A DNA stretch of 64,000 nt from Gammaproteobacteria bacterium (GCA_012103455.1 WLWT01000001.1:2795288-2859287); one strand, 5' to 3'; shown: positions 19,401 to 64,000, numbered from the stretch's first letter. The notes: generated from the sequence alone by a model not told the origin. A program made the numbers and translations.

Positions 19401-22400
19401 CTGTTGTGCAGATGATTGCTGATCAGAGCAACGAGGAGGGGGAATCGGTCTCGGTGCCGGTGCTGGCGACGGATGCCGATCCAGGCGATATTTTGACCTA
19501 CGGTCTGGCGAGCGGTCACCTGCTACCACAAGGCGTGAACATCGATCCGGTCACGGGTGTCATGTCCGGGGTGATCGCGGCGGCCAGCGCGGGCTCCTAC
19601 ACGCCGGTGGTGACGGTTTCCGATGGCATTTTCACCCTGTCCGAGACATTTGGCTGGTTGGTGGATGCCGCCGATGGCTTGGTGGTGACGGATATCGCCG
19701 ATGTAACCATGGACGAAGGCGATTCGGTTGACGTTGCCGTCACTGCAAGTGGCGTCGCTGTGTCGCTTTGCATCGTACCGGGCAGTCCATTGCCGCCGTT
19801 CGTCACCTTGGCCGACAACGGTGATGGTACGGGGAGTATCCATATCGCGCCTACTCATGCGGATGCGGGTTCGTATACCGTTGCCGTCACGGTTGGCGCT
19901 TCGCAATCATTGTGTACCAGGCCGCCGGAGGCGCAGCTATTTGCCCCGGTGAGGAAGACGTTTACGGTGGACGTGGCAGATGTTAATCAGCCACCCGCGG
20001 TCATGTTGCCTGGCGCCCAGTCCCATCGCGCGGGGGCGACGGTCAATCTTCCTATCCCGGCCTCCGATCCGGAAGGCGGGACGTTGCGATTCGCTGCGGT
20101 TGATTTGCCAGCCGGGCTGACCATAGACGCCGCCAGCGGCACCATCAGTGGCGCCATCGCGCTGGACGCGCGGGGCGACTACAGCGTAGCCCTCTCAATT
20201 TTGGATGTGCTCGACAACCGGGTTCATGGCTACACGCTGCAATGGACGGTTACCGCCAACAACATCGCGCCGACGGCCATCGACGATGCGGTGAGTACCG
20301 ATGAGGATGTCGCCCTCACGTTTGACGTGCGCGTCAACGATACCGATGCGAACGGTGATGTGTTGGCAATCGATAGCCATACGGCCGTGGCGAACGGTAC
20401 TCTTGTTCTCAATGCCGACGGCACATTCAGCTACACGCCCAATGCGCAGTTCAGCGGCTCGGAGTCCTTTGATTATGTGATCACCGATGGCGCCAGCTCT
20501 GACACCGGGACGGTGACCATCACTGTGGAGGCGGTGAATGATCCACCGTCGGTCACGAATCCGGTGCTTGTGAGCAGTGCCGAGAACGATACCGTCAACT
20601 TGACGCTGGTGGCGAGTGACGAAGAAGGACAGGCCCTCACGTACTCAGCATCGGGTCTACCGGGCGGACTTTCCATGAACGCGGACACTGGTGCTGTGAC
20701 CGGCGTGTTGGGCTACACGACGGCCGGTAGTTATACCGTCGCAGCCAATGTGGCCGACGCGGGCGGCGCGTCTACCGAGGTGGTTTTCACTTGGGTGGTG
20801 CGCGACATCAACCAAGCACCCGTGGCGGCGGCCGACTCGGTTTCCACGCCGGAGGATACACCGGCAAGTATTGCGGTGCTTGCGAACGACGTTGAGCCCG
20901 ATGGACAGGCACTAGCTGTCACCGCGGTGACGCAACCGTCCGATGGGACGGCGATCATCAATGCGGACAACACCGTTACCTATACCCCCAACCAGAATTT
21001 CTTCGGCGCGGATACATTTCACTACACCGTGAGTGACGGCTTGCTCGGTATCAATGTAGCGGCTGTAAGCGTTACCGTTACGGCGCAAAACGATGCGCCG
21101 GTCGCGGTCGCTGATAGCGTGACCGTAGATGAGGGTACATGGGCCGTCGTTGATCTCGCCGCCAATGATATTGACGTCGAGAACGCGCTGGACCTTGCGA
21201 GTATCGCCATCACCGTTGGCGCTAACCACGGCACGCTGGTCAACGACGGCGACGGTACAGTGGGGTACCGACACGATGGTAGCGAAACCACGGGTGACAG
21301 TTTCACGTACACGATTGCAGATACTTCAGGTGCATCTTCGAACCCGGTCAGTGTGACCATCACCGTTACGCCGGTGAACGACGCGCCCATTGCGGCGGCT
21401 GATGCGGGAGCGGTGGCCGAAGGCGCCACGCAGAACATTGATATCGCGGGCAATGACACCGACGCGGAAAACGCGCTGGATCCGAACAGTGTGACAATTG
21501 TCAGCGCGCCCATGAATGGATCGGTTCGGATCTTCGCCGACGGTACGGTTGACTACACGCACGATAGTAGTGAAACCCTGGCTGATCGCTTTCAGTACAC
21601 CATCGCCGACACGAGCGGTACGCCTTCTAACGTGGCAAGTGTTGCCATCACGGTATCCGCAGTCAATGACGCCCCGGTTGCATCGGACGACAGCACGGTT
21701 GTCGCGGAAGGGGCAAGTCTTTCCATCGACGTAGTTGGTAACGATGCCGATGCCGATGATGGCCTGGACTTGACGAGCGTGGTGATAGTTGCAGGCGCCA
21801 CCAATGGCACACTCGTGGTCAATTCGAACGGCACGGTGGTTTATGAGCACGATGGCTCGGAAACGCTTTCAGATAGTTTCAGCTACACCGTTGCCGATGT
21901 CGGTGGGGCGGTATCCAACGTTGCTATCGTCGCTATCACTGTTGCTCCGACCAACGATAATCCCGTGGCTGTTGGAGAAACAGTCGCCGTTGACGAAGGC
22001 GGTGCGGTAACAATCAATGTGGTTGTAAACGATACCGACAGCGACGATGCTTTGAATCCGAGCAGTGTCTCAGTGGTGTCAGGTACGACTAATGGCGTAC
22101 TGATCAACCATGCCGATGGCACGCTGACCTATACCCATGATGGCAGTGAGACCACCGCCGATAGCTTCAGCTACACGATTGCTGATACTACCGGCGCGGT
22201 ATCCAACGCCGCCACGGTCACTATCTCCGTGACGCCGCAAAATGATGCGCCAGTGGCCACAGCTGACAGCCAGACAGTTGCCGAAGCCGGCGCAGTCGTT
22301 ATTGATGTGGCGGGCAACGATTCCGATCCGGACGATGGCATCGTTGCCTCGAGTGTGGTGGTGGTTGCTGGAGCGACCAACGGCAGCTTGACCAACAATC

Positions 22401-25400
22401 TCGATGGAACTGTCACGTATACCCATGACGGTAGCGAGACCACCTCGGACAGCTTTACGTACACCATCACCGATGGCAGTGGCGCCGTATCGAATGTGGC
22501 AACGGTCAGCATCGCTGTAACGCCGCACAACGATGCGCCCGTGGCCGTTGCCGATAGTGGTTTGGTGAATGAAGGTGCGGCGCAGACGATTAATCTCATC
22601 GCCAACGATACGGATGCGGATGACGGCATCGATCCGTCCAGTCTCGTGGTGGTGGTGGCACCTGCACACGGTTCGCTGAGCCTGCTGGGCGATGGCACGG
22701 TGAGTTACACTCACGACGGCAGTGAGACCACAACCGATAGCTTCAGCTACCGTGTGTCTGACTTCGCCGGCGCCCCGTCTAATACGGTGACGGCCAATAT
22801 CTCGATTACCCCCATTAACGATATACCGATTGCCGCTGCCGACACCGGCTCAGTGGTCGAAGGCTACAGCGTCATTCTCAACCTGGCGGCGAACGATACG
22901 GACGCGGACGATGGCATCGATCCGGCGAGCATTGTAGTGACGGCGCCGGTCAGCAACGGCTCGCTTATCGTCAATGGCGACGGTACGGTCAGCTATACCC
23001 ATAATGGCGGTGAAACCACGTCGGACGGCTTCAGCTACACCATCGCGGATGCCAGTGGCGCGTTGTCGAACGTGGCGGCCGTGACTATTACGGTGACGGC
23101 GCAAAATGATGCGCCGGTGGCTGCCGGTGACAGTGCGGTCCTCAATGAGGGTGCGAGCACAACCATCAACCTTGTTGCCAACGATACTGACGCCGATGAT
23201 GGTGTTGACCCATCCAGCATCGCCATCATCTCCGGTGTCGCGAACGGCAATGTGGTCATCAATGCCAATGGCACCGTTGACTATGCCCATGATGGGGGTG
23301 AAACGACCAGTGATAGCTTCACTTACACCATCAGTGATGTTGCGGGCGCCGTATCGAATGCGGCGCCGGTCAGCATCACGGTCACGCCGGTTAATGATGC
23401 ACCGGTGGCGGTGGCCGATGCGGCACGCACGGTAGGCGGGATCGAAGTCGTTGTGCCGGTGTTGGCCAACGACGTGGATGCAGATGGAGATCCGCTGCAA
23501 GTGAGCGCGGTGACACCGGCGTCACATGGAGTGATACGCCATGATGGCATGCGCATTCATTACACGCCGGAAGTTGATTTCGCAGGTGTCGAGCGGGTGG
23601 ACTATACGGTGGTTGATGGTCAAGGCGGGAGCCACGGCGCGGCGCTGACGATTACGGTTGAGGCGCCCGGAGTGACGGCGCCGCCGCGTCTGGTGGAGCC
23701 CCCTAATGAAACGGAGGTGGCGACACTGGCGCCACCACTGGTGGTCGCGCACGAGATTCATGATCCACGCCTGGAAGTGGGGTATGAATTCGAGCTCTAT
23801 GAGGATCCGCAGATGCAGGTGTTGGTGCGTCGCGCGACGGTGACGGCCGGCGCACAGACGCTTACGGCGTGGCCGGTATTCCCGCCGTTGGATGCGGATA
23901 ACCAGTGGTACGACTGGCGCGCACGTGGGTTTAACGCGGGTGGGCACAGTGTATGGGTATATGGTGATTTTTTTGTCAACACGGAAAATGACGCCCCGGG
24001 TCCTTTGCCATTGAGTGCGCCGGGGATCGGCGTGGAAGTCGATAGCCTAAGGCCGACCTTGGAGGTGGTTAACAGCGTGGATGTGGATCAGGGCACGGCA
24101 CCGCTGACCTATGTATTCGCAGTCTATGAAAACGACCCCGGCATCAGCCCGGAAGTCTGGCCATTGGTTGAGTCTTCGGCGCTGGCGGCGGGCGACGAAG
24201 GGGTTACGGCGTGGCGTGTTGAAGTGGCGTTGCGGGAGAACCGGGAATACCACTGGCAGGTGACGGTGAGTGACGAGCACGGTGCGCGAACGCGCAGCGA
24301 CGTGGGGCGCTTCTTTGTGAATACGGCGAACGAGGCGCCGCGGTCGCCGGCGGTGGCCGCACCACTGGTGGACGAGGAAGTGCCGACGCAGGCGGTGCGC
24401 TTGCAGGTGCACAATGCGGTGGATGCAGATCGCGACACGCTGCATTACACCTTTGAGCTGGATCGGGGCGAGACCTTTGACAGTGCATTCCAACAGCGCT
24501 CCGAACGGCTGCCCGCGGGTGTGGGGACGACGAGTTGGGACGTTGAGGGGTTAGCCGACAACACCTGGTATGTATGGCGAGTGAAAGCCGATGACGGCGT
24601 CGCGGAGAGTGGTTGGACCAATGGCCGGTTTTTCGTGAACACCCAAAACGACGCGCCCTCGATACCGACGGTGCGTAATCCGGGGAACGGAGCATGGGTT
24701 GGGACGCGCAGGCCGGCGTTGGCCGTTAACGCGAGTACGGACGAGGACGAAGATGCGCTGGACTATGAGTTCGAACTCTACGCCTACAGTCACCGCTCGC
24801 AGGAACTCGCCAGCGCTGTTGAGGTTGAGCCGAGGCGTGGATTGACCAGTCGGACGCCACGGATGTTGTTGGATGACCACCGCTGGTATGCGTGGCGAGC
24901 GCGAGCCGTGGATGAGCATGGAGCGGCGAGTGCGCCGATGGAATGGCAGTGGTTCTTTGTCAATGACAATGGAGTGGATGATGCGCCGGAGTTGGAATGG
25001 GTGCTGCCCTACACGGATATAGAGATACCGACGGAGGACGGCCAGGTTTGGCTGCGCTGGCAGGTTCGGCTGCGCTGGGAAGATAGCGATCCGGACAGCA
25101 ATGCGCGGGTGTCGTTGTATTACGAGCGCGCTGACGTAGATGGACCCGTCGGGACCTTGATTGCCGCGGATATAGAGGAAGACCTGGATGATTGGGGCGA
25201 TGAGTATCCGTGGGAGGTGTCGGGATTGTACCCGGGACATTATCGAGTGTATGCACATATACGCGATGCGCGCAATGAAGTGCGGGTGTATGCACCTGGT
25301 GTGGTCACAGTGATGGCCCTGGTGCTACCAGGGGACTTAAACGGAGATGGGATGACGGATCTCGCGGATTTATACTATATAGCGTCGAGTTATGAGGCCT

Positions 25401-25507
25401 GCACCGGGGCGCCGAATTTTGTTGCGCGAGCCGATTACGATGCGGACGGTTGTGTGACGTGGCGGGATTTTGAGGTTTGGTATTACGACTATTTCTTAAC
25501 CCGTTAA
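16412..25507 (+). CDS. giant secreted multidomain surface protein (3031 codons): signal peptide, prenyltransferase/terpene-cyclase-like alpha-toroid repeats (QxxDGSW), Ig/cadherin-like domains, embedded degenerate cyclophilin-type domain, >12 tandem ~95-aa repeats, four FVNT..NDAP modules, C-terminal type-I dockerin-like pair
   Basis: Single uninterrupted ORF. The motifs are listed in the findings. Confidence 0.85.
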   Translation: MLGALKGLRWYWRGTVLVALALLAFSLSSWAATQTQLDAARAAALAWLIERQQGDGSWRGRPGNDIQVSANSLLAMERAGVNGYVHSRGLSWLTNAEPRSIDALAQQAIVLQGAGLQTQPLFEALIARRNRLSAWGAYSQFSTSFPDTPLAMRALRSDAATYQAERSKLLIGLCEILRSQKTASDAGSWSYLAADDPALVSTGKSAVIPTAQNVVELHAFIALGYSARTCNGYNFNLATAVDAGVDWLIGLVDGDGGIGVDGSTVLETSAAFLVIDTVRSGAPSLAVLQDYLVNTQAADGAWEQDALVTALAARTFAATQLADTDGDGLPDVVEARLGTDPGLADARALVKGNGASELGITAPHVFSARLGQPFSADLMITGGVAPYSWRVTGFLPDGIASVGSTTATNTLAGTPTVTGTFNFGYGVTDANGTVLTGNGQLRVNIPPVLAAPADPVSSEGAAVSLTVAASDEDGDSLSYSASGLPPGLSINAATGEIVGNLDYVSTGVYAGATVTVSDGSDAVSQQFTWTVNDVDREPVIDTAPASLTSDEGAAIALGATASDPDGLAVGFSYTNLPPGVTYSSATGDITGTPTYEAAGTYSITLTVSDGFLQATHGFVWTVNDTNRAPLLDDLGVIFVNEGNQTELTLAFSDPDNHNLNVTVNSVATFVTATPNPDGTITLTIAPGSDDAQSASYPVIVSVTDTHAAPLTTSKTLQIGVIEDSGATHVVQLSSGYGDFKLELYGAVAPRAVSAFLTLVSTGELEGSLVDHIGFPTQRPILQSGGLRLEGSQWERVNEGGALASEPGIAHEYGTVALTSATGLWPNFSRSQWFINPADNSSALSSATQTVFGRVVDGWPVISAIANTPVYNASAIDFAGIGRAEESTLTQLPLVNASIPILLGGVVELSAYARPCTLIGIAGEPFQSEFPLPVGLTAPYTYAISSGALPPGVTLDPVTGIIAGATNAGGRYPFSYTMTDALSAQASAHCTFIVNSPPVVQMIADQSNEEGESVSVPVLATDADPGDILTYGLASGHLLPQGVNIDPVTGVMSGVIAAASAGSYTPVVTVSDGIFTLSETFGWLVDAADGLVVTDIADVTMDEGDSVDVAVTASGVAVSLCIVPGSPLPPFVTLADNGDGTGSIHIAPTHADAGSYTVAVTVGASQSLCTRPPEAQLFAPVRKTFTVDVADVNQPPAVMLPGAQSHRAGATVNLPIPASDPEGGTLRFAAVDLPAGLTIDAASGTISGAIALDARGDYSVALSILDVLDNRVHGYTLQWTVTANNIAPTAIDDAVSTDEDVALTFDVRVNDTDANGDVLAIDSHTAVANGTLVLNADGTFSYTPNAQFSGSESFDYVITDGASSDTGTVTITVEAVNDPPSVTNPVLVSSAENDTVNLTLVASDEEGQALTYSASGLPGGLSMNADTGAVTGVLGYTTAGSYTVAANVADAGGASTEVVFTWVVRDINQAPVAAADSVSTPEDTPASIAVLANDVEPDGQALAVTAVTQPSDGTAIINADNTVTYTPNQNFFGADTFHYTVSDGLLGINVAAVSVTVTAQNDAPVAVADSVTVDEGTWAVVDLAANDIDVENALDLASIAITVGANHGTLVNDGDGTVGYRHDGSETTGDSFTYTIADTSGASSNPVSVTITVTPVNDAPIAAADAGAVAEGATQNIDIAGNDTDAENALDPNSVTIVSAPMNGSVRIFADGTVDYTHDSSETLADRFQYTIADTSGTPSNVASVAITVSAVNDAPVASDDSTVVAEGASLSIDVVGNDADADDGLDLTSVVIVAGATNGTLVVNSNGTVVYEHDGSETLSDSFSYTVADVGGAVSNVAIVAITVAPTNDNPVAVGETVAVDEGGAVTINVVVNDTDSDDALNPSSVSVVSGTTNGVLINHADGTLTYTHDGSETTADSFSYTIADTTGAVSNAATVTISVTPQNDAPVATADSQTVAEAGAVVIDVAGNDSDPDDGIVASSVVVVAGATNGSLTNNLDGTVTYTHDGSETTSDSFTYTITDGSGAVSNVATVSIAVTPHNDAPVAVADSGLVNEGAAQTINLIANDTDADDGIDPSSLVVVVAPAHGSLSLLGDGTVSYTHDGSETTTDSFSYRVSDFAGAPSNTVTANISITPINDIPIAAADTGSVVEGYSVILNLAANDTDADDGIDPASIVVTAPVSNGSLIVNGDGTVSYTHNGGETTSDGFSYTIADASGALSNVAAVTITVTAQNDAPVAAGDSAVLNEGASTTINLVANDTDADDGVDPSSIAIISGVANGNVVINANGTVDYAHDGGETTSDSFTYTISDVAGAVSNAAPVSITVTPVNDAPVAVADAARTVGGIEVVVPVLANDVDADGDPLQVSAVTPASHGVIRHDGMRIHYTPEVDFAGVERVDYTVVDGQGGSHGAALTITVEAPGVTAPPRLVEPPNETEVATLAPPLVVAHEIHDPRLEVGYEFELYEDPQMQVLVRRATVTAGAQTLTAWPVFPPLDADNQWYDWRARGFNAGGHSVWVYGDFFVNTENDAPGPLPLSAPGIGVEVDSLRPTLEVVNSVDVDQGTAPLTYVFAVYENDPGISPEVWPLVESSALAAGDEGVTAWRVEVALRENREYHWQVTVSDEHGARTRSDVGRFFVNTANEAPRSPAVAAPLVDEEVPTQAVRLQVHNAVDADRDTLHYTFELDRGETFDSAFQQRSERLPAGVGTTSWDVEGLADNTWYVWRVKADDGVAESGWTNGRFFVNTQNDAPSIPTVRNPGNGAWVGTRRPALAVNASTDEDEDALDYEFELYAYSHRSQELASAVEVEPRRGLTSRTPRMLLDDHRWYAWRARAVDEHGAASAPMEWQWFFVNDNGVDDAPELEWVLPYTDIEIPTEDGQVWLRWQVRLRWEDSDPDSNARVSLYYERADVDGPVGTLIAADIEEDLDDWGDEYPWEVSGLYPGHYRVYAHIRDARNEVRVYAPGVVTVMALVLPGDLNGDGMTDLADLYYIASSYEACTGAPNFVARADYDADGCVTWRDFEVWYYDYFLTR

Positions 25508-26367
25508 GCGGATGTGGGTATGAAGGCGGGGTGCAAGATGACAGACACAGCAACGAACTCGGTTCGCATTGATTTCGATACGCGCCAACCCACGATGCGA
25601 CGGGCAAACCCATCGATAACGAAGGCGACGTAGACGAACCCTGAGCGGGTTGCGACACAGGTGAAATCGGACCCCCACCACTCGTTTGGACGGCTCGCAC
25701 TGAAGTCCCGGTGGCCGTGGTCTTCGCGGTGGGGGTCCTCCGCCGGGGTTGGGGTGGGTACGCGGGCCCCACGTCTCCCCCCAGTAGTCCCAAGAAACGC
25801 ACGCGCCACGCGGTGGCCTTCACGTTTGAGTGGATGGCATACCTTGCCAACGCCGTAGACCGCATGGTTGTGTGTCCACACCCGCTGCACTTCGGTGGCT
25901 AGCCGTGCGCCGCGTTGAGTCCGCTGTAGAAATGCCTTGGCCTTGAGGGTCGCCCTCACGGGCTTTGTGTTCGTAGTACGTCGATGGGGCAATGGAGCCA
26001 AGTGTTTGCCCATGGGCTCGACCCGGTCAGTACTCCGGTATTGGCCGATAAACGACACTCACGCTTCAGTGGGTGGTCGAGTGCCGCCTGGGCGAAAAAA
26101 GCCGGCGCCTTGGGTAGAATGTCATTGGCCTTGCGTCGCTCTAGATGCTCCCGTTCAAGTGCCTTGAGTCGGCGTTTGTATTGGTCCTCGGCACGCGGTG
26201 CCCGCAACACCCAAGCGCGCGGTGTTTCTGCTGAGCACCCTAATCTTGTCCGCTATCGAACCGATTGTCGTCCACTGAGAGGCATCGTCATCACGATGTG
26301 CCGCAACCCTGCGCACCGCACGCTCTCGAACTTCGGACGACTAGCATTTTTGTTGGGGTTTGTTCAT
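25504..26367 (-). pseudogene. IS3-family element remnant (degenerate orfA C-terminus plus truncated orfB)
   Basis: orfB motif RPNEWWGSDFTCVATRSGFVYVAFVIDGFARRIVGWRVS and orfA tail LEREHLERRKANDILPKAPAFFAQAALDHPLK. IS3-like terminus TGAACAAACCCC at ~26343-26367. Heavily mutated and 3'-truncated at the adhesin stop. Confidence 0.6.
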
Positions 26368-38766: not shown

Positions 38767-39059
38767 GGAGGGCACCTCTAAAAATGCACTTTTTCCGCGA
38801 TTGCGGCGTCAGCTCCGTGCTCGAATCCTCATGTATCACCTATCACTGCTGTCCCGTAGAGCATACCAACCCTTTGAATTTATTGGAAAAACTGTTTTCA
38901 TGTCTCAAACACAATGCATAGTTAATTTTTTATGGAAATCAATAGGTTATACGCTGTGTTTAACCATTTTGTGGGACAGCAGTGATCACCTATACACTGC
39001 GGTTCCGCGCGCGGTGCTTCCTTGCACTCACGAAACAATGACTATTTTTAGAGGTGCCC
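38767..39059. mobile_element. MITE-like element (family A, TIR GGGCACCTCTAAAAATGCAC...) carrying a nested second MITE-like element (38844..38984, TIR CACTGCTGTCCC) flanked by a 9-bp duplication ATCACCTAT
   Basis: Left half 38767-38843 and right half 38994-39059 are collinear with the uninterrupted copy at 44857-44999. The nested insert has perfect 12-bp inverted ends and duplicated target atcacctat (38835-38843 and 38985-38993). Confidence 0.55.
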
Positions 39060-44856: not shown

Positions 44857-44999
44857 GGGGCGCCTGCTAAAAATAGTCATTTTTTCGTGAGTGCAAGGAA
44901 GCACCGCGCGCAGAACCGCAGTGTATAGGCGATACATGAGGATTGGAGCACGGCGCTGACGCCGCAATCGCGGAAAAGTGCATTTTTAGCGGGTGCCCC
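44857..44999. mobile_element. MITE-like element, family A, uninterrupted reference copy (~143 bp, ~30-bp imperfect TIRs)
   Basis: Left end ggggcgcctgctaaaaatagtcattttttcg, right end cgcggaaaagtgcatttttagcgggtgcccc (inverted). Intergenic between pduO-like and the cyclase gene. Confidence 0.55.
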
Positions 45000-54592: not shown

Positions 54593-58580
<3,988 letters not shown>

Positions 58581-58728
58581 GCGCTGCCAAGCCTACCGGC
58601 TCTAGCAGTGTGCGCAGCCGTGGTTTGCGCCCTCGTCTAAAGCGGCCAGCGTATTGACTCAGTGCTGTGCAAGTGACTTCCCTCCAGGAGATAGTGTTGG
58701 ACAGGCTTGAATTGAGAGAGCGACAGCC

Positions 58729-59256
58729 ATGAATGGGCAAGTCAGATTGCTGGAAGGCGGCGAGCTCCATCAAGCGGTGATTCACGATGGCTTGCTAAGC
58801 GCCCAGCAATGGGTGTGGATTGCTACCGCCGATCTCAAAGACATGCACGTGCAAATCGACCGCGCTTTTGTGCCCATACTGGAGCAATTCGATCGCATGG
58901 CGCAACGGGGGGTGCGTTTTCGTATCGTGCATAGCGCGCTGCCGTCGCGCCCGTTCAGAGCTACCCTGGAGGGCTTCAAAGCGCTGACCGGGGGCGGCCT
59001 GGAACTCCAGATCTGTCCGCGCTGTCATTGGAAACTGGTGCTCGTCGATGGCCGCTTTGCTTATTGCGGCTCGGCTAATTTCACCGGTGCGGGTTTGGGC
59101 GCCAAAAACATCCACAAGCGCAATCTGGAGCTGGGTTTGGTCACCGAGGACGCTGCTTGGGTAGCACGGCTTACGGCTATCTTCGATCGCTTTTGGATAG
59201 GCGCCCATTGCCAAGCGTGCAAGCTGCGGGCCGCCTGCCCGGATCCGATATCTTAA
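58729..59256 (+). CDS. phospholipase D-family (single HKD motif, Nuc-like) protein without signal peptide
   Basis: HWKLVLVDGRFAYCGSANFT is an HxK(x)4D(x)6GSxN motif. Confidence 0.7.
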   Translation: MNGQVRLLEGGELHQAVIHDGLLSAQQWVWIATADLKDMHVQIDRAFVPILEQFDRMAQRGVRFRIVHSALPSRPFRATLEGFKALTGGGLELQICPRCHWKLVLVDGRFAYCGSANFTGAGLGAKNIHKRNLELGLVTEDAAWVARLTAIFDRFWIGAHCQACKLRAACPDPIS

Positions 59257-59310
59257 AGTGTTTTCCAACTCATCACCTCGCGTGCCTATACCCCCTCGAC
59301 TAAAAGCCTC

Positions 59311-60486
59311 ATGACCAAACTATTGTCTACCTCCCGCCGTGTCGAACAGATGCAAGCACCCGTTATTGCGCAAGTGGGCGCGTTGCTGGCGGCCCACCCG
59401 CGGGCTATTTCGTTGGGTCAAGGGGTGCCGTCCTATGGACCGCCGGTGGCGCTGTTGGCAAGAGCCGTGACACCGGAGGAGGACCCCTCGCGCCACCGCT
59501 ATCAGCCGGGTGACGGGATGCTCGAGTTGCAGGCCGTTTGGCGCGCGGTCATCGCTGAGGAGAATGGCATAGGCCTGGAGCAAGGGGACATGATCGTCAC
59601 TGCCGGCAGCAATATGGCTTTTCTCCAACTGATGGCCGTGGTCGCCGATCCGGGCGCTCAGGTTATTTTGCCGCTGCCTTATTTCTTCAATCAGCGCATG
59701 GCTCTGGAAATACTCGGTATAGAGCCGGTATTGGTGGCCACCGATCACGCATTTCAATTGGACCCGGAGCGGATCGCGGCAGCCGTGACCGCTAAAACCC
59801 GGGCTATAGTCACCGTGTCGCCCAACAATCCGACCGGTGCTGTCTATCCTGAGGCAGCGCTAAAGCAAATCAACGAGTTGTGCGCGGCCCGCGGCCTCAT
59901 TCATGTGAGCGATGAGGCTTATCAGCACTTTGTCTTCGAGGGTGCCACGCACTTCTCGCCCGCCAGTGTGAGCGGGGCGGAGGCGCACACGATTACGCTG
60001 TTTTCGCTCAGCAAGTCCTACGGCATCGCGGGTTGGCGGGTAGGCTGCGCGCTGGTGCCGCGGCGGTTGATGCATGACGTGCGCAAAGTGCAGGACACTA
60101 ATCTCATCTGTGCTCCGGTGCCGTCGCAGCGGTTGGCGGCGGTGTTGCTGGCTGAGGGCAGCGAGTGGCGCAAGGCGAAGGTGGCGCAGATCGCAGCGCT
60201 GCGCCAGCCACTCATCCGCGCTTTGGCCGCAATGAGCGCACTGCTTGAGGCGCCGGTTACCGAGGGCGCGTTTTATTTCATGTTGCGCTTGCCTCGAACG
60301 GGTCCCGATATGCCGTTGGTGGAGCGCTTGATACGCGAGCACGGTATCGCACTCATTCCCGGCAGCGCTTTCGGCGCGGGTCCTCAAATGCACTTGCGCT
60401 TGGCCTATGGCGCCCTGACCCGCGCATCGCTGGACGACGCCATGGCCCGGTTGCGACAAGGGCTGAGCGCGGCCCGGTGGGTTTAG
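59311..60486 (+). CDS. pyridoxal-phosphate-dependent aminotransferase (class I/II)
   Basis: PLP-lysine region FSLSKSYGIAGWRVGC. About 390 aa fold-type I pattern. Confidence 0.8.
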   Translation: MTKLLSTSRRVEQMQAPVIAQVGALLAAHPRAISLGQGVPSYGPPVALLARAVTPEEDPSRHRYQPGDGMLELQAVWRAVIAEENGIGLEQGDMIVTAGSNMAFLQLMAVVADPGAQVILPLPYFFNQRMALEILGIEPVLVATDHAFQLDPERIAAAVTAKTRAIVTVSPNNPTGAVYPEAALKQINELCAARGLIHVSDEAYQHFVFEGATHFSPASVSGAEAHTITLFSLSKSYGIAGWRVGCALVPRRLMHDVRKVQDTNLICAPVPSQRLAAVLLAEGSEWRKAKVAQIAALRQPLIRALAAMSALLEAPVTEGAFYFMLRLPRTGPDMPLVERLIREHGIALIPGSAFGAGPQMHLRLAYGALTRASLDDAMARLRQGLSAARWV

Positions 60487-60651
60487 CTCTTGATGCAACC
60501 GATGTCTAAGAATTCTTCCTGTAATCAGGCACAATGAAAGCACGGATGCAGCCCCCTTGGCCGCATCGCAAACGTATACTGTGGCGCCAGCGGAGCAAGT
60601 CCGCCAAAGCGATAGTCATGCGCTCGAACCAGCACACCCGGGTAACCTCCC

Positions 60652-61167
60652 ATGAGCACCGTTTTAGAACTGCGCGAGTCCAGCCCTCCTTTAGATATCG
60701 TCCAAGATGTCGCCATGGAGCTATTGCGTAGCCGGCGCACCATCCATGATTTCACCACCCAAGAGCCGCCCGCGGGGCTTATCGAAGAGGCGTTGGAGGT
60801 GGCCCGCTGGGCGCCCAACCATCACCTGACCCAACCGTGGCGTTTCTATCTGGTAGGGGCTGAGACGCGTGAGGCCATCGCCCGGTTAAACGGTGATATG
60901 GTGGCTGGTAAAAAAGGCGCGCAAGCGGGCGAAGCCAAGTATGAGCGATGGCGCAATATCCCCGGCTGGCTGGTGGTCACCTGCGAAAACCACGACGACC
61001 CTATACGCGCCAAGGAAGACTACGCCGCAACTTGCTGCGCTATACACAACATCACATTAAAAAATGGCCTCGGCCACCTTCGGTGCCCGTGGCTCAACTC
61101 AGGGGCTATTAGCTTAACCAAGTTGGTTTTGAAGTTGGCAAGCAGCTTGAAGTTTTACCGGGCATAG
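60652..61167 (+). CDS. nitroreductase-family protein (C-terminus possibly altered)
   Basis: LRSRRTIHDF...WAPNHHLTQPWRFYLV...IHNITLKNGLGHL is nitroreductase-like. The last ~20 codons are atypical and lower in GC. Confidence 0.65.
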   Translation: MSTVLELRESSPPLDIVQDVAMELLRSRRTIHDFTTQEPPAGLIEEALEVARWAPNHHLTQPWRFYLVGAETREAIARLNGDMVAGKKGAQAGEAKYERWRNIPGWLVVTCENHDDPIRAKEDYAATCCAIHNITLKNGLGHLRCPWLNSGAISLTKLVLKLASSLKFYRA

Positions 61168-61216
61168 GCCATCTGGTGATTACTTTGGCACCCGATAAAA
61201 CGCCTTGATTTTTTAC

Positions 61217-61249
61217 CAGCCCCAGCAATTGACTGGGGCTTTTGGGGCA
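61217..61249 (+). terminator. possible rho-independent terminator (ccagccccagcaattgactggggcttttgggg)
   Basis: GC stem agcccca/tggggct followed by a T-run. It lies downstream of the nitroreductase gene and overlaps the last attC. Confidence 0.35.
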
Positions 61250-61302
61250 TAACGCCAAGCTCAGCGGCGGTGTTAACCGTCCTCTGGAGTATTTTGTTAG
61301 GC
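61247..61302 (-). other. attC site 4 (56 bp; GCCTAAC ... GTTATGC in cassette orientation)
   Basis: Core, inverse core and central imperfect palindrome (gccaagctcagcggcgg / ccgtcctctggagt). Confidence 0.5.
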
Positions 61303-61321
61303 GTGAGTCCTCCCCCTTAGG

Positions 61322-61897
61322 CTATTTAAGTGACACCATTTCCCATGCTGAATGGCTTAATTTTGTACTTGTACAACGCTCCAATGATAAAACTCGCCAT
61401 CTATCAAGTGGTGAGTATGTTCTTGATGATTCACCACCGACCGCCAAACAAAGGTTACTTCCACGCAATTTTAGCTGTCCATTTTTCAAATGCTCAAACT
61501 TTTGCAAGTTTTGAGTATCAAAAAAGGAAACTCTATAGTCACATGGACGAAGTAATACTGCTGTCCCCGGTAAAACTGTATTGTTTACCCCAAATGCCGT
61601 AACACAAACTTGCGCACTTGGAAACAAAAGCTGACCTTTGCTGGTATAAATCACTGCACTATCAGGAGTTGGACCACTTTTGCAGTTGTGTGTAAATAAT
61701 GGAACCTCTAAACGCAAATTGGAGCCTGTGCCTAAAATATCAAAACAGTAACCATCCGTTGGTCTGTCTAAGCGATCTTTAAGACGCACATGAACTAAAT
61801 TATTCTCGTTTGCATAGGAAACAGCGACCATCCCAATAAATATTGGGGATGAGATAAAGCATATTTTCAATGCTTTTTTTATTAGTTTTGCAATCAT
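61322..61897 (-). CDS. integron cassette ORF: secreted protein with possible ricin-B (beta-trefoil) lectin-like repeats
   Basis: Signal peptide MIAKLIKKALKICFISSPIFIGMVAVSYA. Repeated motifs CFDILGTGSNLRLE / NLCLAVGG..., Cys pairs. Low GC (~40%). Confidence 0.55.
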   Translation of the reverse strand: MIAKLIKKALKICFISSPIFIGMVAVSYANENNLVHVRLKDRLDRPTDGYCFDILGTGSNLRLEVPLFTHNCKSGPTPDSAVIYTSKGQLLFPSAQVCVTAFGVNNTVLPGTAVLLRPCDYRVSFFDTQNLQKFEHLKNGQLKLRGSNLCLAVGGESSRTYSPLDRWRVLSLERCTSTKLSHSAWEMVSLK

Positions 61898-62000
61898 TTT
61901 GATACCTCGCTTTGAATAAGTGTTCTGTTATCTATATTGTTACCTCATCGTTAATACACAGAACAGAATATAAAACTAAACGGTCGCTGTGCGTTTAACC

Positions 62001-62072
62001 GCCTAACGCCGCCAGCAGGGGCAGACAAAACGCGTAGCGGTTTGGCTGTCCCTCTGGCTGGCCTTGTTAAGC
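62001..62072 (-). other. attC site 1 (72 bp; GCTTAAC ... GTTAGGC in cassette orientation)
   Basis: Begins 3 nt after the stop (62076) of the cassette ORF. Conserved central acgcgtagcgg element is shared with the other attC sites. Confidence 0.6.
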
Positions 62073-62075
62073 GCG

Positions 62076-62477
62076 CTATTGCTTCGAACGCTCATACGCC
62101 GCATAGCTTCTCAGTAGCTCTAGCCGCTCGACAACCTGTCCAGTAGTGGCGCCGTGTAGCTTCATTTTTGCCACCACCATCATGTATTTCCATGGCACGT
62201 AAGTATTGGCTGGATCACGATATAGATCGCTCATTACTTGGCTAATTGTTTGCGCATCACTCATTGGGATCGCATTTTCGTAGGACCCCGCGTTCTTTAT
62301 TTGCAGTTCTTCAAACAATAGCTCTTGGCCTTTGCTAGCACCCCAAACCCAGTAAACCTGACTATCAGTACTTACGCGAGACCAACTTTTCCCCGGATTG
62401 TATTCTTGGTCAGCAGACACAGATGACCATACGAACATGATCAATATCACGACGGGGATCGATTTTCTTCTCGTCAT
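62076..62477 (-). CDS. integron cassette ORF: small secreted protein of unknown function
   Basis: Signal peptide MTRRKSIPVVILIMFVWSSVSA. 133 aa. 5'UTR ~22 nt from the cassette boundary. Confidence 0.55.
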   Translation of the reverse strand: MTRRKSIPVVILIMFVWSSVSADQEYNPGKSWSRVSTDSQVYWVWGASKGQELLFEELQIKNAGSYENAIPMSDAQTISQVMSDLYRDPANTYVPWKYMMVVAKMKLHGATTGQVVERLELLRSYAAYERSKQ

Positions 62478-62498
62478 ACTTGGATTCTCGTTTTTAGC

Positions 62499-62570
62499 GC
62501 TTAACGGACAAGCTCAGCCGCGGCCAGAACGCGTAGCGGGCTGGCCGTCGGCTGGAGCGACTTGTTAGAT
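62499..62570 (-). other. attC site 2 (72 bp; ATCTAAC ... GTTAAGC in cassette orientation)
   Basis: Begins 1 nt after the toxin ORF stop (62572). Imperfect palindrome ggacaagctcagccgcggccag / ctggccgtcggctggagcgacttgt. Confidence 0.6.
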
Positions 62571-62571
62571 T

Positions 62572-62865
62572 TCACTTTCTGCGAGTCCTCCAGTATCCGG
62601 GCTCCCGGCTGAAATGAGCTACTGCAATTATGACTATTTCGTCTGGAGACGGTTCGTAGATAACGCCGTACCGGAACCCTCGAACTCTACAGCGCCGGAT
62701 GCCACCACCCATGTGGTGCCAGGCATCTGGGAATGCCTTGATGCGATCAATGGCCGCCCGAACTTCATCACGCAACCGATCGCCGGTGCCAGGTGCCTCA
62801 GAATTCAGTCTCTCAACCGCGTCCCGTAGTTCAGACCGGGCAGGACCAAGAAAGCGAACCTTCAA
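62572..62865 (-). CDS. integron cassette ORF: ParE/RelE-family toxin
   Basis: MKVRFLGPARSELRDAVERL...FRYGVIYEPSPDEIVIIAVAHFSREP is the plasmid-stabilisation ParE pattern. 4-nt overlap with the upstream antitoxin. Confidence 0.7.
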   Translation of the reverse strand: MKVRFLGPARSELRDAVERLNSEAPGTGDRLRDEVRAAIDRIKAFPDAWHHMGGGIRRCRVRGFRYGVIYEPSPDEIVIIAVAHFSREPGYWRTRRK

Positions 62866-63086
62866 TCACTTTTGCCCAGTTCCGCAAAGACCTCGTCGAC
62901 ATCGTAAGCTTCAAGCTCACCGCGACGATAGGCAGCAAGGCGATCTTCTGCCTCCTTGAGCCACTGGGCTTCGATTTTAGGATCCGGCTTTCCCAAACTT
63001 TCAAGCAATTCGTCCACTAGAACTGCCCGCTCACCGGCGGAGAGTTCTAGCGCATCACGAAGCAGAGATTCAGAAGACACGGCCAT
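62862..63086 (-). CDS. integron cassette ORF: addiction-module antitoxin (TIGR02574-like)
   Basis: ...LSAGERAVLVDELLESLGKPDPKIEAQWLKEAEDRLAAYRRGELEAYDVDEVFAEL. Confidence 0.7.
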   Translation of the reverse strand: MAVSSESLLRDALELSAGERAVLVDELLESLGKPDPKIEAQWLKEAEDRLAAYRRGELEAYDVDEVFAELGKSD

Positions 63087-63139
63087 GTTGCCACCTCGCA
63101 GCGTTGCTTAGTCCCAGCATAGCGATACCGAGCGGTGAA

Positions 63140-63211
63140 ATCTAACGGCTACATTCAATTGCGGGTGAACCGCGTAGCGGTGAAGCCGTCAATTGCAATG
63201 ATTTGTTAGCG
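63140..63211 (-). other. attC site 3 (72 bp; CGCTAAC ... GTTAGAT in cassette orientation)
   Basis: Same architecture and central gaaccgcgtagcgg element as the other attC sites. Confidence 0.55.
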
Positions 63212-63462
63212 CAGATGACGGTAGCCACACCAGGTGGTGCTGCACGTGATGAGGTGCGAACGGGGCCAATGATAATTGGACGTCGAACCCGCCGACGATG
63301 CACACCGAAGCCGTCTTCTAGGCCGTATTGGGTTCGACTCGAAGTCGGCCACCTACGCAATGCGTTACTACGCTTCCGGGGCAAGATCCATGCTCCTCGC
63401 TTTGTCGTCATCCCTCCGTGAGTGTGCATGCTCAAGTCCCTTGCCTTTGACCCGCTTGAAGG

Positions 63463-63690
63463 CGCTAACAGTATGTTACACAGGCCGCTGGCCTCTGTAA
63501 CATTATTATAGGGCGGCCCTATAATTTTCTGCAACCGCCAAGGCTACTCCCGTAACTAATTGAAATATAAAAAAATTTACCTACTTCGGACAATCAGCGA
63601 AAAACTATAGGGAATTGTTCCCTATAATTCTGTTGTATTTTTGCAACAACAAGCGTATCCTGCCCCCAACTTTCTTGAAAAGGATTTCGA
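63463..63690. promoter_or_regulatory. putative attI recombination site / Pc-P(int) region
   Basis: AT-rich region between intI start and first cassette. Candidate core cgctaac (63463-63469, i.e. GTTAGCG on the cassette strand) next to the inverted repeat atgttacacaggcc/ggcctctgtaacat. Direct repeats (c)cctataatt at ~63517 and ~63623. Confidence 0.3.
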
Positions 63691-63691
63691 G

Positions 63692-64000
63692 ATGACCAGA
63701 TCCCCTTTTCTGCTATCCATTGCTGACTATATGCGGGTGCGTGGTTACAGCAAGCGCACCATCCACACCTATATCCGGTGGATAAAATCCTTTATCATAT
63801 TTAGCCGAAAACGACACCCAAGCGACATGGGTCGGGATGAGGTCGCGGCTTACCTGACGTATTTGGCGGTTAAACGCAAGGTCTCCTCCAGCACACAGTC
63901 GCTGGCACTCAATGCGCTGGTCTTTTTGTATGACAAGTTTCTGGAAAAGCCTTTAGGCGATGTCAGCGAGTGCCATCGTGCGCGGCGTCAACAGAAGTTG
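63692..64000 (+). CDS. intI: integron integrase IntI (5' end, 103 codons; continues beyond the window)
   Basis: MTRSPFLLSIADYMRVRGYSKRTIHTYIRWIKSFIIFSRKRHPSDMGRDEVAAYLTYLAVKRKVSSSTQSLALNALVFLYDKFLEKPLG matches Vibrio-type IntIA N-termini nearly residue for residue (SQFLLSVREFMQTRYYAKKTIEAYLHWI...HPSLMGDKEVEEFLTYLAV...KTQSLALNSLSFLY). Confidence 0.9.
   Translation, partial: MTRSPFLLSIADYMRVRGYSKRTIHTYIRWIKSFIIFSRKRHPSDMGRDEVAAYLTYLAVKRKVSSSTQSLALNALVFLYDKFLEKPLGDVSECHRARRQQKL

What the first reader, a model, noticed from the sequence alone, without database searches (positions are those of the whole stretch)
61247..64000. Chromosomal integron: Vibrio-type intI, attI and at least four attC sites with cassettes transcribed divergently from intI
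At 63692 an ORF runs off the window whose first 100 residues match integron integrases (IntIA type) almost position by position. Immediately to its left, on the opposite strand, four sites have the RYYYAAC ... GTTRRRY attC architecture. Three are exactly 72 bp and share the internal element (a/c)cgcgtagcgg, and the fourth is 56 bp. Each starts within 1-5 nt (about 20 nt for the 56-bp site) after the stop of a minus-strand ORF, and the next ORF starts 20-100 nt after the previous GTT. That is the canonical cassette layout. The GC content of the cassettes (~40-50%) is below the backbone (~63%). The array ends against the terminator of a backbone nitroreductase gene. So this is the attI-proximal part or the whole of a small sedentary integron.
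Basis: partly seen in the sequence, partly recalled or inferred. Interest (0 to 1): 0.8.

Follow-up and report, generated by a model that had tools for sequence, protein, structure and literature searches.

The report
Chromosomal integron in a sponge symbiont
The right end of the window holds a real but ordinary integron, a bacterial gene-capture device: the start of its integrase gene, its docking site and four captured cassettes, in the chromosome of a bacterium that lives in the marine sponge Mycale hentscheli.

Summary
Confirmed. The window ends with the first 103 codons of an integron integrase gene (63692-64000, + strand), an attI site (crossover 63468|63469) and four attC sites on the opposite side: 63140-63211, 62499-62570 and 62001-62072 (72 bp each) and 61247-61302 (56 bp). 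A covariance model trained only on attC sites from 19 other genomes finds exactly these four sites in 64 kb, all on the strand expected for the recombining bottom strand.

Related metagenome contigs share the attI-intI platform at 98% identity and lose homology at 63466, at the predicted attI crossover (63468|63469). The toxin-antitoxin cassette recurs at 100% identity in another array, with boundaries at the predicted crossovers. A 98%-identical ortholog encodes a full 325-aa IntI (433 bits against a cutoff of 265).

- The first cassette has no credible ORF.
- The nitroreductase gene is not intact. It is cut at 61050, and its tail and "terminator" are foreign DNA.
- An intact second copy lies beyond intI. 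The integron therefore sits in an island flanked by a 1.46-kb duplication, next to a decayed IS91/ISCR-like element.

This is a new member of a known kind, of modest interest.

The parts
63692..64000 (+). 5' part of intI (codons 1-103), cut by the window end
   Evidence: TIGR02249 positions 1-98, E 3.5e-29. With 30 further codons from L089, it aligns without gaps to VchIntIA (PDB 2A3V) residues 3-132. The ortholog in L099, 98.1% identical in DNA with 1 aa difference in 103, is a full 325-aa IntI scoring 433 bits against a cutoff of 265.
63462..63525 (-). attI: R box GCGCTAAC (63462-69; crossover between A63468 and C63469), L box GTTAC (63475-79), stem CAGGCC-GCT-GGCCTCTG, a third TAAC box (63498-63501), and a conserved ATTATTATAGGG...CCCTATAA block
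   Evidence: Homology to L089 and L099 starts at 63466. The architecture is conserved in the attI of the 60-61%-identical IntI loci L001 and L002. The first 8 nt of cassette 1 are complementary to its own R'' (read).
63526..63691 (.). intI-attI intergenic or leader region with a second palindrome, TATAGGG-N7-CCCTATA (63606-63626). The first palindrome, TATAGGG-N3-CCCTATA, is at 63507-63523.
   Evidence: two matches in 64 kb, 0 expected. Promoter-like hexamers: + strand 63497-63525 (10 of 12 matches), - strand 63593-63564 (9 of 12). There is no CTGT-N8-ACAG LexA box, unlike L003, L015, L025 and L034.
63146..63468 (-). Cassette 1, 323 bp, no credible ORF. Its attC is at 63140-63211 (72 bp).
   Evidence: No Pfam or NCBIfam hit. 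attC scores: R1 73.5 bits, R2 40.8 bits on the + strand, against 18 bits with R1 and no match below E=10 with R2 on the - strand.
62505..63145 (-). Cassette 2, a toxin-antitoxin pair: antitoxin 62862-63086 (PF09720), ParE toxin 62572-62865 (PF05016), attC 62499-62570
   Evidence: The identical 646-bp segment 62502-63147 occurs in a different array (L081) and as a stand-alone contig (L082). attC scores: R1 77.1 bits, R2 56.6 bits.
62007..62504 (-). Cassette 3: 133-aa ORF 62076-62477 with a signal-peptide-like N-terminus and no family match; attC 62001-62072
   Evidence: attC scores: R1 76.6 bits, R2 45.4 bits.
61253..62006 (-). Cassette 4: 191-aa ORF 61322-61897 (weak ricin-B lectin match, below the cutoff); attC 61247-61302 (56 bp)
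   Evidence: PF00652, E 1.2e-4, 22.6 bits against a cutoff of 29. attC scores: R1 51 bits, R2 48.2 bits. A paralog at least 90% identical lies elsewhere in the same genome (GKR94_09750).
61051..61246 (.). 196-bp foreign tail after the last attC. It has no attC. It may be the 5' stub of a lost cassette. It contains the hairpin CCCCAG-N7-CTGGGG at 61221-61240.
   Evidence: It has no homology to the intact nitroreductase copy and no covariance-model hit. GC content drops here.
60652..61050 (+). 3'-truncated nitroreductase gene. The ORF runs on to 61167 through foreign sequence.
   Evidence: The Pfam match covers only profile positions 1-128 of 167. The intact 203-aa paralog P0016 matches up to residue 133 and then diverges. 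DNA homology ends at 61050, at AAC|GTT in the intact copy.
59593..61050 (+). Left copy of a 1.46-kb direct duplication (3' two-thirds of the aminotransferase gene plus the 5' two-thirds of the nitroreductase gene) that flanks the integron island
   Evidence: 98.6-98.7% identical to L093, L094 and L095. Both copies are annotated on the same 4,699,109-bp contig: NKC13320/21 and NKC13335/36.

Best explanation
This is a complete small chromosomal integron in a gammaproteobacterial symbiont of the sponge Mycale hentscheli, probably the 'Candidatus Caria hoplita' MAG.

intI on the + strand encodes a VchIntIA-like tyrosine recombinase. Divergently, on the - strand, attI is followed by four cassettes, each ending in an attC site.

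Mechanism. The attC sites fold as single-stranded hairpins, and the window + strand is the recombining bottom strand. IntI cuts between A and C of the 5'-AAC-3' triplet and exchanges strands with attI or another attC. Cassettes are thereby inserted at attI, excised and reshuffled. Cassette genes are read from a promoter in the intI-attI region, and the ParE/antitoxin cassette helps to retain the array.

Shown here: the parts, their structure and polarity, and the fact that cassette content has changed at exactly the predicted crossover points.

Inferred: that catalysis is by this IntI, that the promoter is where I place it, and that the toxin-antitoxin pair stabilises the array.
For: Integrase:
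- The N-terminus matches TIGR02249 and VchIntIA residues 3-132.
- The gene continues on L096 and L099. Its C-terminus matches TIGR02249 positions 191-315 and VchIntIA residues 196-320, including the IntI-specific insertion that the Xer alignments skip.
- The full ortholog scores 433 bits against a cutoff of 265.
- In the source genome one annotated protein, NKC13326.1 (GKR94_14365), lies between the antitoxin and ISCR ORF1.

attC sites:
- In an 11-site alignment, 79.9% of cells are paired against 65.7% in shuffles (0 of 500 shuffles reach it).
- In the L-box helix, 7 of 9 pairs show compensatory changes.
- Model R1 finds only the four sites in the window, at 51-77 bits on the + strand against 18-24 bits on the - strand.
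- In 80 unrelated intI loci, R1 gives 86 hits; 85 are upstream of intI and on the intI strand.
- Model R2, trained only on hits from other genomes, finds the same four sites and nothing else.
- The unpaired bases lie on the arm opposite AAC, and the + strand folds more stably. Both are as described for bottom strands in PMC5027507.

Cassette exchange:
- L089 and L099 share attI-intI at 98% but differ from 63466 leftwards.
- The toxin-antitoxin cassette 62502-63147 is 100% identical in another array of the same MAG.
- Each cassette's first bases are complementary to its own R'' over 8-12 nt (repeat I21).

Chromosomal backbone: smc-zipA-ligA.
Against: - Only 103 codons of intI are in the window, and the source genome's own IntI sequence could not be retrieved. 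No protein more than 74% identical was found in the protein database.
- The comparisons use metagenome contigs from other sponge specimens. One of them (L083) may be a chimera across the repeated toxin-antitoxin cassette.
- The array is short.
- Promoter predictions are no better than chance (4 found, 3.0 expected).
- No LexA box is present, so regulation is unknown.
- Activity has not been observed directly.
Confidence: 0.9

Rival explanations
1. A fossil integron. The platform and cassettes are genuine, but IntI is no longer active in this genome, so the array is a frozen relic that behaves like a cluster of attC sites without a working integrase.
For: The IntI protein of the source genome is absent from the 5.8-billion-protein collection, although its neighbours are present. 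There is no LexA box. The array end is scarred by a truncated gene and a 196-bp stub. A decayed ISCR-like element lies next to intI. In L089, an IS630 element sits next to attI and there are no cassettes.
Against: Consecutive accession numbers and locus tags indicate an annotated protein, not a pseudogene, at the intI position. The ortholog in L099 is an uninterrupted 325 aa with a full-length TIGR02249 match. Cassette content differs between 98%-identical platforms exactly at the crossover, which points to recent activity.
Confidence: 0.15
2. The four repeats are REP-like elements or transcription terminators next to an unrelated tyrosine recombinase gene. There are no attC sites.
For: They are GC-rich hairpins that lie just after stop codons. 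Rfam has no matching family.
Against: A model trained only on sites next to intI genes in other genomes finds them with E 6e-8 to 6e-12 and strong strand bias. None occurs in the other 61 kb. The RYYYAAC/GTTRRRY ends are present. Homology breaks with other arrays fall exactly at the AAC triplets. The recombinase N-terminus scores 102 bits for IntI against 16 bits for Xer.
Confidence: 0.01
3. The integron is not sedentary. It is part of a mobile or recently imported island (array, attI, intI, ISCR-like element, Phd/PIN), carried by rolling-circle transposition of the IS91-family element. The island integrated as a circle by one homologous crossover in the aminotransferase-nitroreductase segment.
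For: A 1.46-kb direct duplication has a 3'-truncated left copy and a 5'-truncated right copy, which is the pattern of a Campbell-type integration. The ISCR-like ORFs lie directly downstream of intI, with the integron on the side of the transposase gene that one-ended transposition would carry along. A 173-nt repeat follows the transposase remnant and recurs near the right junction. The attI-intI-ISCR block is 98% identical in three assemblies whose left flanks differ: nitroreductase, Rhs toxin, or IS5/HAD hydrolase.
Against: The ISCR-like gene is split into two ORFs that cover only profile positions 14-123 and 213-430 of 509, so it is probably dead. No oriIS or terIS was identified. The right junction lies outside the window and comes from other assemblies. 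The different left flanks could equally result from local deletions or inversions, or from misassembly at repeats.
Confidence: 0.25

Closest known systems
Vibrio cholerae chromosomal integron (VchIntIA, PDB 2A3V; VCR attC sites)
   Same: Same layout: intI divergent from attI and the cassettes. IntI aligns to VchIntIA without gaps: 48% identity over residues 3-132 and 65% over residues 196-320, including the IntI-specific insertion. The attC bottom strand is on the intI coding strand. A toxin-antitoxin cassette sits in the array.
   Different: There are four cassettes, not about 180. The attC sites are 56-72 bp long and only 66-77% alike in their core, whereas VCRs are about 120-bp near-identical repeats. 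There is no LexA box upstream of intI. The host is a sponge symbiont placed in Nitrosococcaceae, with about 60% GC.
Small chromosomal integrons of marine and environmental Gammaproteobacteria (the 'complete integron' class of IntegronFinder, PMC4889954)
   Same: An IntI with the specific domain, at least one attC within a few kb, cassettes mostly of unknown function, and strain-specific cassette content. The closest IntI relatives found are MAGs of Poriferihabitaceae, Cocleimonas, Marinimicrobium and Alteromonas, at 51-61% identity.
   Different: None in kind. This IntI is at most 61% identical over its N-terminus to any of 185,579 species representatives.
Complex class 1 integrons with ISCR1
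   Same: An IS91-family (ISCR-like) transposase gene adjoins the integron, and a direct duplication flanks the inserted block.
   Different: The ISCR-like element lies on the intI side, not beyond the cassette array's 3' conserved segment. The duplicated segment is host chromosome, not qacEdelta1-sul1. The transposase is decayed. There are no resistance genes. The IntI is not IntI1 (NF011946 scores 293 bits against a cutoff of 435).
In0-type empty integrons
   Same: Contig L089 carries the same attI-intI (98% identical) with no attC site to its left.
   Different: This applies to a related strain, not to the window. In L089, an IS630 element lies 4 nt from the attI TAAC, and an Rhs toxin/immunity locus follows.

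Membership tests
Integron integrase (IntI; TIGR02249) | Full-length match to the IntI profile above the curated cutoff | tested here: inconclusive
   The window fragment scores 102 bits over profile positions 1-98, below the 265-bit cutoff only because it is cut by the window end. The 325-aa ortholog in L099 (98.1% DNA identity, 1 of 103 aa different) scores 433 bits over positions 1-315.
Integron integrase (IntI; TIGR02249) | IntI-specific additional domain between patches II and III, absent from XerC/XerD | tested here: met
   It is present in the C-terminal part found on L096 and L099 (AEYAGVWLPNALARKYPTAQYELGWHYLFPASGLSIDPETSKLRRHH). This aligns to VchIntIA residues 196-240, whereas the XerA/XerD alignments start only after it. 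It is outside the window. It belongs to the same gene, because a single locus tag lies between the antitoxin and ISCR ORF1.
Integron integrase (IntI; TIGR02249) | Catalytic R-H-R-Y residues | tested here: met
   The L099 ortholog contains GSGLR, HTLRHSFATH and EIYTH. For the source genome itself this was not testable, because its sequence beyond 64000 was not available.
attC recombination site | R' 5'-RYYYAAC-3' and R'' 5'-GTTRRRY-3' at the ends of an imperfect hairpin of about 55-140 nt | tested here: met
   All four sites end in YTAAC/ATAAC and GTTA. Columns T4, A5, A6, C7 and G66, T68, A69 are invariant in 11 sites.
attC recombination site | Hairpin conserved through covariation rather than sequence | tested here: met
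   15 of 28 pairs have changes on both sides. The covariation score is 0.347 against 0.137 in shuffles (0 of 500 reach it) and at most 0.125 when the partners are slid.
attC recombination site | Extrahelical bases on the arm opposite the AAC triplet of the bottom strand; bottom strand more stable than the top strand (PMC5027507) | tested here: met
   Single-base bulges (T, and G or C), 6 bp apart, lie on the 3' arm of the + strand. Minimum free energy, + against - strand: -23.2/-17.9, -22.9/-22.2, -17.0/-14.0 and -10.4/-9.8 kcal/mol.
attC recombination site | Recognised by an attC covariance model | tested here: met
   IntegronFinder's model was not available and Rfam has none. A substitute model trained on 78 sites next to intI genes in 19 other genomes scores the four sites at 41-57 bits, with no other hit below E=1 in 64 kb.
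Integron (functional platform) | An attI site adjacent to intI where cassettes are inserted | tested here: met
   Homology with two 98%-identical platforms that carry other cassettes, or none, starts at 63466, at the TAAC of the predicted R box. The box architecture is shared with L001 and L002.
Integron (functional platform) | Pc promoter reading into the array | tested here: inconclusive
   A candidate on the - strand at 63593-63564 matches 9 of 12 positions, but the number of promoter-like sites equals the chance expectation.
Integron (functional platform) | Cassettes are discrete mobile units | tested here: met
   The toxin-antitoxin cassette is identical in two arrays, with breaks at the AAC triplets. 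Each cassette start is complementary to its own R'' over 8-12 nt.
Sedentary chromosomal integron (SCI) | Chromosomal location | tested here: met
   smc, zipA and ligA lie 3-13 kb away on the same strand of the contig. The source contig is 4.7 Mb.
Sedentary chromosomal integron (SCI) | Stable position within the lineage, not linked to mobile elements | tested here: not met
   An ISCR-like remnant lies next to intI, a 1.46-kb duplication flanks the island, and the left flanks differ in three assemblies.
Sedentary chromosomal integron (SCI) | Large array with highly similar, species-specific attC sites | tested here: not met
   There are four cassettes. The attC cores are 66-77% identical and one site is 56 bp long.
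ParE/RelE type II toxin-antitoxin pair | A small antitoxin gene overlapping a downstream toxin gene, both matching the families | tested here: met
   PF09720 at 55.7 bits (cutoff 23.3) and PF05016 at 38.7 bits (cutoff 23). The two genes overlap by 4 nt.

The most novel reading that the evidence does not exclude
The integron may be the cargo of an IS91/ISCR-type element. One-ended rolling-circle transposition would have produced a circle carrying the array, attI, intI, the ISCR element and a piece of host chromosome. That circle would then have re-entered the symbiont chromosome by a single homologous crossover, creating the 1.46-kb duplication. This would be a natural, non-clinical counterpart of 'complex' class 1 integrons and a route by which a chromosomal integron becomes mobile.
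Probability: 0.2. Interest if true: 0.5.

Novelty: new member of a known kind. Interest (0 to 1): 0.3.

Why it matters
It adds a well-documented integron to an uncultivated sponge symbiont that produces natural products. Its IntI is at most 61% identical over its N-terminus to any IntI in the 185,579 species-representative genomes scanned. The public sponge metagenomes capture it in several states: four cassettes, at least two other cassettes, and none with an IS next to attI. This gives a natural record of cassette turnover in a host-associated population. Its link to an ISCR-like remnant and a flanking duplication is a lead on how chromosomal integrons move. None of this changes what is known about how integrons work.

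Tried and rejected
- Rfam scan of 58000-64000 at E<=1: no hit, because Rfam holds no attC family.
- A home-made scan for xxxxAAC...GTTxxxx with a minimum-free-energy filter was not discriminating. It gave 17 and 15 hits spread over the GC-rich window and missed three true sites. I dropped it in favour of covariance models.
- Extending the window rightwards:
  - The genome-contig scan found no genome closer than 61%.
  - The aminotransferase is not indexed.
  - The metagenome hit L089 ends only 91 nt beyond the window.
  - The protein database holds no IntI more than 74% identical.
  - The gene was finally bridged through neighbours (P0149, then L096; P0271, then L099).
- I first read the intact nitroreductase contigs (L092-L095) as an integron-free allele. 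I rejected this because accession numbering shows both copies on the same contig.
- IntI-mediated origin of the junction at 61050. The break lies at AAC|GTT of the intact copy, as a secondary-site event would predict, but no attC adjoins it. This is left open.
- The hairpin at 63282-63338 in cassette 1 as a fifth attC: rejected, because neither model hits it.
- L083 as proof of a longer array at this locus: treated as a possible chimera, because the toxin-antitoxin cassette is a 646-bp exact repeat within the MAG.


Full report
**What is in the sequence.**
- Reading 60000-64000 and listing ORFs confirms an ORF that starts at 63692 and runs off the window.
- Its 103 residues match the integron-integrase profile TIGR02249 at positions 1-98 (E 3.5e-29, 102 bits), against 16 bits for XerC/XerD. 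They also match Pfam Phage_int_SAM_4.
- To its left lie four sites with RYYYAAC...GTTRRRY ends: 63140-63211, 62499-62570 and 62001-62072 (72 bp each) and 61247-61302 (56 bp).
- The decamer CGCGTAGCGG occurs three times in 64 kb, only in the three 72-bp sites; 0.35 are expected.
- Minus-strand ORFs end 1, 3 and 19 nt before three of the sites:
  - a ParE toxin (PF05016) overlapping a PF09720 antitoxin;
  - a 133-aa protein;
  - a 191-aa protein with a sub-threshold ricin-B lectin match.
- GC content is 0.36-0.57 in this stretch against 0.57-0.68 upstream.

**Are the sites attC sites?**
- Rfam has no attC family and gave nothing, so I built models.
- I aligned the four window sites with seven sites from an array on metagenome contig L081.
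- On a structure with an R box, an unpaired spacer, a 3+6-bp L helix with two single-base bulges, and a variable stem:
  - 79.9% of cells pair, against 65.7% in shuffles (0 of 500 reach it);
  - 7 of 9 pairs of the L helix carry compensatory changes;
  - sliding the partners collapses the signal.
- The outer three R-box pairs are often unpaired. This is expected, because the outer half of R' belongs to the next cassette.
- Model R1 finds only the four sites in the window, at 51-77 bits on the + strand against 18-24 bits on the - strand.
- Those hits are circular, so I ran R1 on 80 unrelated intI loci. It gave 86 hits at E<=0.01, and 85 of them lie upstream of intI on the intI coding strand. 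That geometry covers about a quarter of the searched strands.
- I then built model R2 from 78 of those foreign sites only.
- R2 finds the same four window sites (41-57 bits, E 6e-8 to 6e-12) and nothing else below E=1 in 64 kb.
- The bulged bases lie on the arm opposite the AAC triplet of the + strand, and the + strand folds more stably than the - strand.
- Both properties are described for recombining bottom strands in PMC5027507. The polarity therefore matches cassette genes on the - strand.

**Cassette boundaries and attI.**
- With the crossover between A and C of AAC, the cassettes are:

| Cassette | Coordinates | Length | Content |
|---|---|---|---|
| 1 | 63146-63468 | 323 bp | no credible ORF |
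| 2 | 62505-63145 | 641 bp | toxin-antitoxin pair |
| 3 | 62007-62504 | 498 bp | 133-aa ORF |
| 4 | 61253-62006 | 754 bp | 191-aa ORF |

- Each cassette's first bases are complementary to its own R'' over 8-12 nt (repeat I21; read). This marks the cassettes as discrete units.
- Comparative data confirm the boundaries:
  - Contig L081 shares only 62502-63147 with the window, at 100% identity, inside a different array. L082 is that cassette alone.
  - Contigs L089 and L099 share attI-intI at 98%, and their homology starts at 63466, at the TAAC of the predicted attI R box.
- To the left of that point:
  - L099 has two other cassettes with attC sites (55 and 31 bits);
  - L089 has no attC, only an IS630-family element followed by an Rhs toxin locus.
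- The attI box pattern is CTAAC-N5-GTTAC, a short stem, a third TAAC and the block ATTATTATAGGG. It is shared with the attI of the two closest IntI relatives, which are 60-61% identical.

**The integrase.**
- The window holds 103 codons and L089 adds 30. Together they align without gaps to VchIntIA (PDB 2A3V) residues 3-132, at 48% identity.
- I reached the rest of the gene through neighbouring genes.
  - L096 starts with 130 C-terminal residues that match TIGR02249 positions 191-315 (E 2.4e-61).
  - They also match VchIntIA residues 196-320 at 65% identity, including the IntI-specific insertion that the Xer alignments skip.
- L099 carries an uninterrupted 325-aa gene:
  - 98.1% identical in DNA to the window part, with one residue different in 103;
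  - 433 bits for TIGR02249 against a cutoff of 265;
  - the motifs GSGLR, HTLRH and IYTH present.
- In the source genome, accession numbers and locus tags leave exactly one annotated protein between the antitoxin (NKC13325) and ISCR ORF1 (NKC13327, GKR94_14370). That protein is NKC13326.1, GKR94_14365.
- That protein's sequence was not retrievable. The protein database held nothing more than 74% identical, so the integrity of IntI in the source genome is inferred, not shown.

**The array end: a correction.**
- The nitroreductase ORF matches its Pfam profile only at positions 1-128 of 167.
- A 203-aa intact paralog, P0016, is essentially identical up to residue 133 and then diverges.
- DNA homology with the contigs that carry it covers 59593-61050 at 98.6-98.7% and stops at 61050.
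Neither model finds an attC there.
- In the intact copy the break falls at AAC|GTT. This is where an IntI secondary-site event would cut, but without an adjoining attC it remains only a lead.

**The wider structure.**
- Both copies lie on the same 4,699,109-bp contig:
  - NKC13320/21: full aminotransferase and truncated nitroreductase, both in the window;
  - NKC13335/36: 5'-truncated aminotransferase and full nitroreductase.
- The integron therefore sits in an island flanked by a 1.46-kb direct duplication. The left copy is 3'-truncated and the right copy is 5'-truncated, which is the pattern left by a circle integrating through one homologous crossover.
- Downstream of intI lie:
  - two ORFs matching positions 14-123 and 213-430 of a 509-position ISCR (IS91-family) transposase profile, so a decayed element;
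  - a Phd/PIN pair;
  - a 73-aa ORF;
  - two copies of a 173-nt repeat.
- The backbone is chromosomal, with smc-zipA-ligA.
- The metagenomes come from the sponge Mycale hentscheli.
- The paper describes a 7.0-Mb MAG with an N50 of 4.7 Mb, 'Candidatus Caria hoplita', placed in Nitrosococcaceae. This matches the contig length, so it is the probable host.

**Regulation.**
- Relatives L003, L015, L025 and L034 have canonical CTGT-N8-ACAG boxes just upstream of intI. The window has none.
- Instead, two palindromes TATAGGG-N3/N7-CCCTATA occur only here in 64 kb. Each overlaps a TATAAT-like hexamer.
- The second palindrome, followed by a T-rich run, also scores as a terminator-like hairpin in the intI leader.
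- The promoter scan is no better than chance, so this is noted but not interpreted.

**Verdict.**
- The observation and its main interpretation hold. This is a small, complete integron of the VchIntIA-like type with four cassettes, and comparative evidence shows cassette turnover at its attI and attC sites.
- It is a new member of a known kind.
- The 'sedentary' label and the 'intact backbone gene with its own terminator' reading do not hold.
- The most novel reading still open is mobilisation of the whole platform by the adjoining ISCR-like element.

Noticed in passing
window 59593-61050, and L093/L094/L095: A 1.46-kb segment (3' part of the aminotransferase gene plus the 5' part of the nitroreductase gene) is present twice on the same 4.7-Mb contig at 98.6-98.7% identity. 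The two copies flank the integron island. The left copy is 3'-truncated and the right copy is 5'-truncated.
   Followed up: yes
L096 1961-3350 (- strand); L099 10001-11275; just beyond the window's right end: A decayed IS91/ISCR-like transposase gene, split into two ORFs, lies directly downstream of intI. It is followed by a Phd/PIN toxin-antitoxin pair and two copies of a 173-nt repeat. Paralogs of the ISCR ORF occur elsewhere in the genome (GKR94_04690).
   Followed up: partly
window 61048-61053: The homology break between the truncated and intact nitroreductase copies falls at AAC|GTT of the intact copy. This is the sequence at which an integron integrase cuts secondary sites, but no attC adjoins the junction.
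   Followed up: partly
window 63507-63523 and 63606-63626: Two palindromes TATAGGG-N3/N7-CCCTATA occur only in the intI-attI region, each overlapping a TATAAT-like hexamer. The usual LexA box upstream of intI is absent (CTGTTGTATTTTTGCA instead of CTGT-N8-ACAG). L001 has a comparable TAGGAT-ATA-ATCCTA palindrome.
   Followed up: partly
window 63282-63338: A perfect 9-bp inverted repeat (GTCGAACCC...GGGTTCGAC) lies inside the ORF-less first cassette. Neither attC model recognises it, and its function is unknown.
   Followed up: partly
L081 (= NKC16972-77 on a 1.22-Mb contig of the same MAG); GKR94_09750: The same MAG has at least one more cassette array. It holds a TIR/DUF1883 gene, SymE and a second PF09720 pair, and it contains the identical toxin-antitoxin cassette. 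A paralog of the 191-aa cassette protein, at least 90% identical, lies at a third locus.
   Followed up: partly
L083 2694-4936 against window 60905-63147: Contig L083 joins the TIR-containing array to the toxin-antitoxin, 133-aa and 191-aa cassettes of the window. It is either a real longer array in another sponge specimen or an assembly chimera across the 646-bp repeated cassette.
   Followed up: no
L089 10087-11186: In a related strain, an IS630-family element with 22-bp inverted repeats sits 4 nt from the attI TAAC. An Rhs toxin gene with a low-GC tip follows, and there are no cassettes. L089 1-642 matches window 24898-25551 at only 90%, while attI-intI is 98% identical.
   Followed up: partly
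window 8152-15582 (-), 1060-2868 (-), 16412-25507 (+): There is a 2476-aa Rhs-type ORF, and a second ORF (1060-2868) containing another copy of a stretch that matches the core end of the L089 Rhs-type gene at about 80% (2240-2316, 8717-8793). Next to them is a 3031-aa ORF.
   Followed up: no
window 38769-39059 and 44858-44989; L099 4578-4717: Short repeats of about 70-130 nt, 90-94% identical, are scattered in the backbone and also present in a related contig. They are probably a REP-like or miniature element family unrelated to the attC sites.
   Followed up: no
protein database: No protein more than 74% identical to this IntI is in the 5.8-billion-protein collection, although all its neighbours from the same MAG are. 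Yet accession numbering implies an annotated protein, NKC13326.1.
   Followed up: partly
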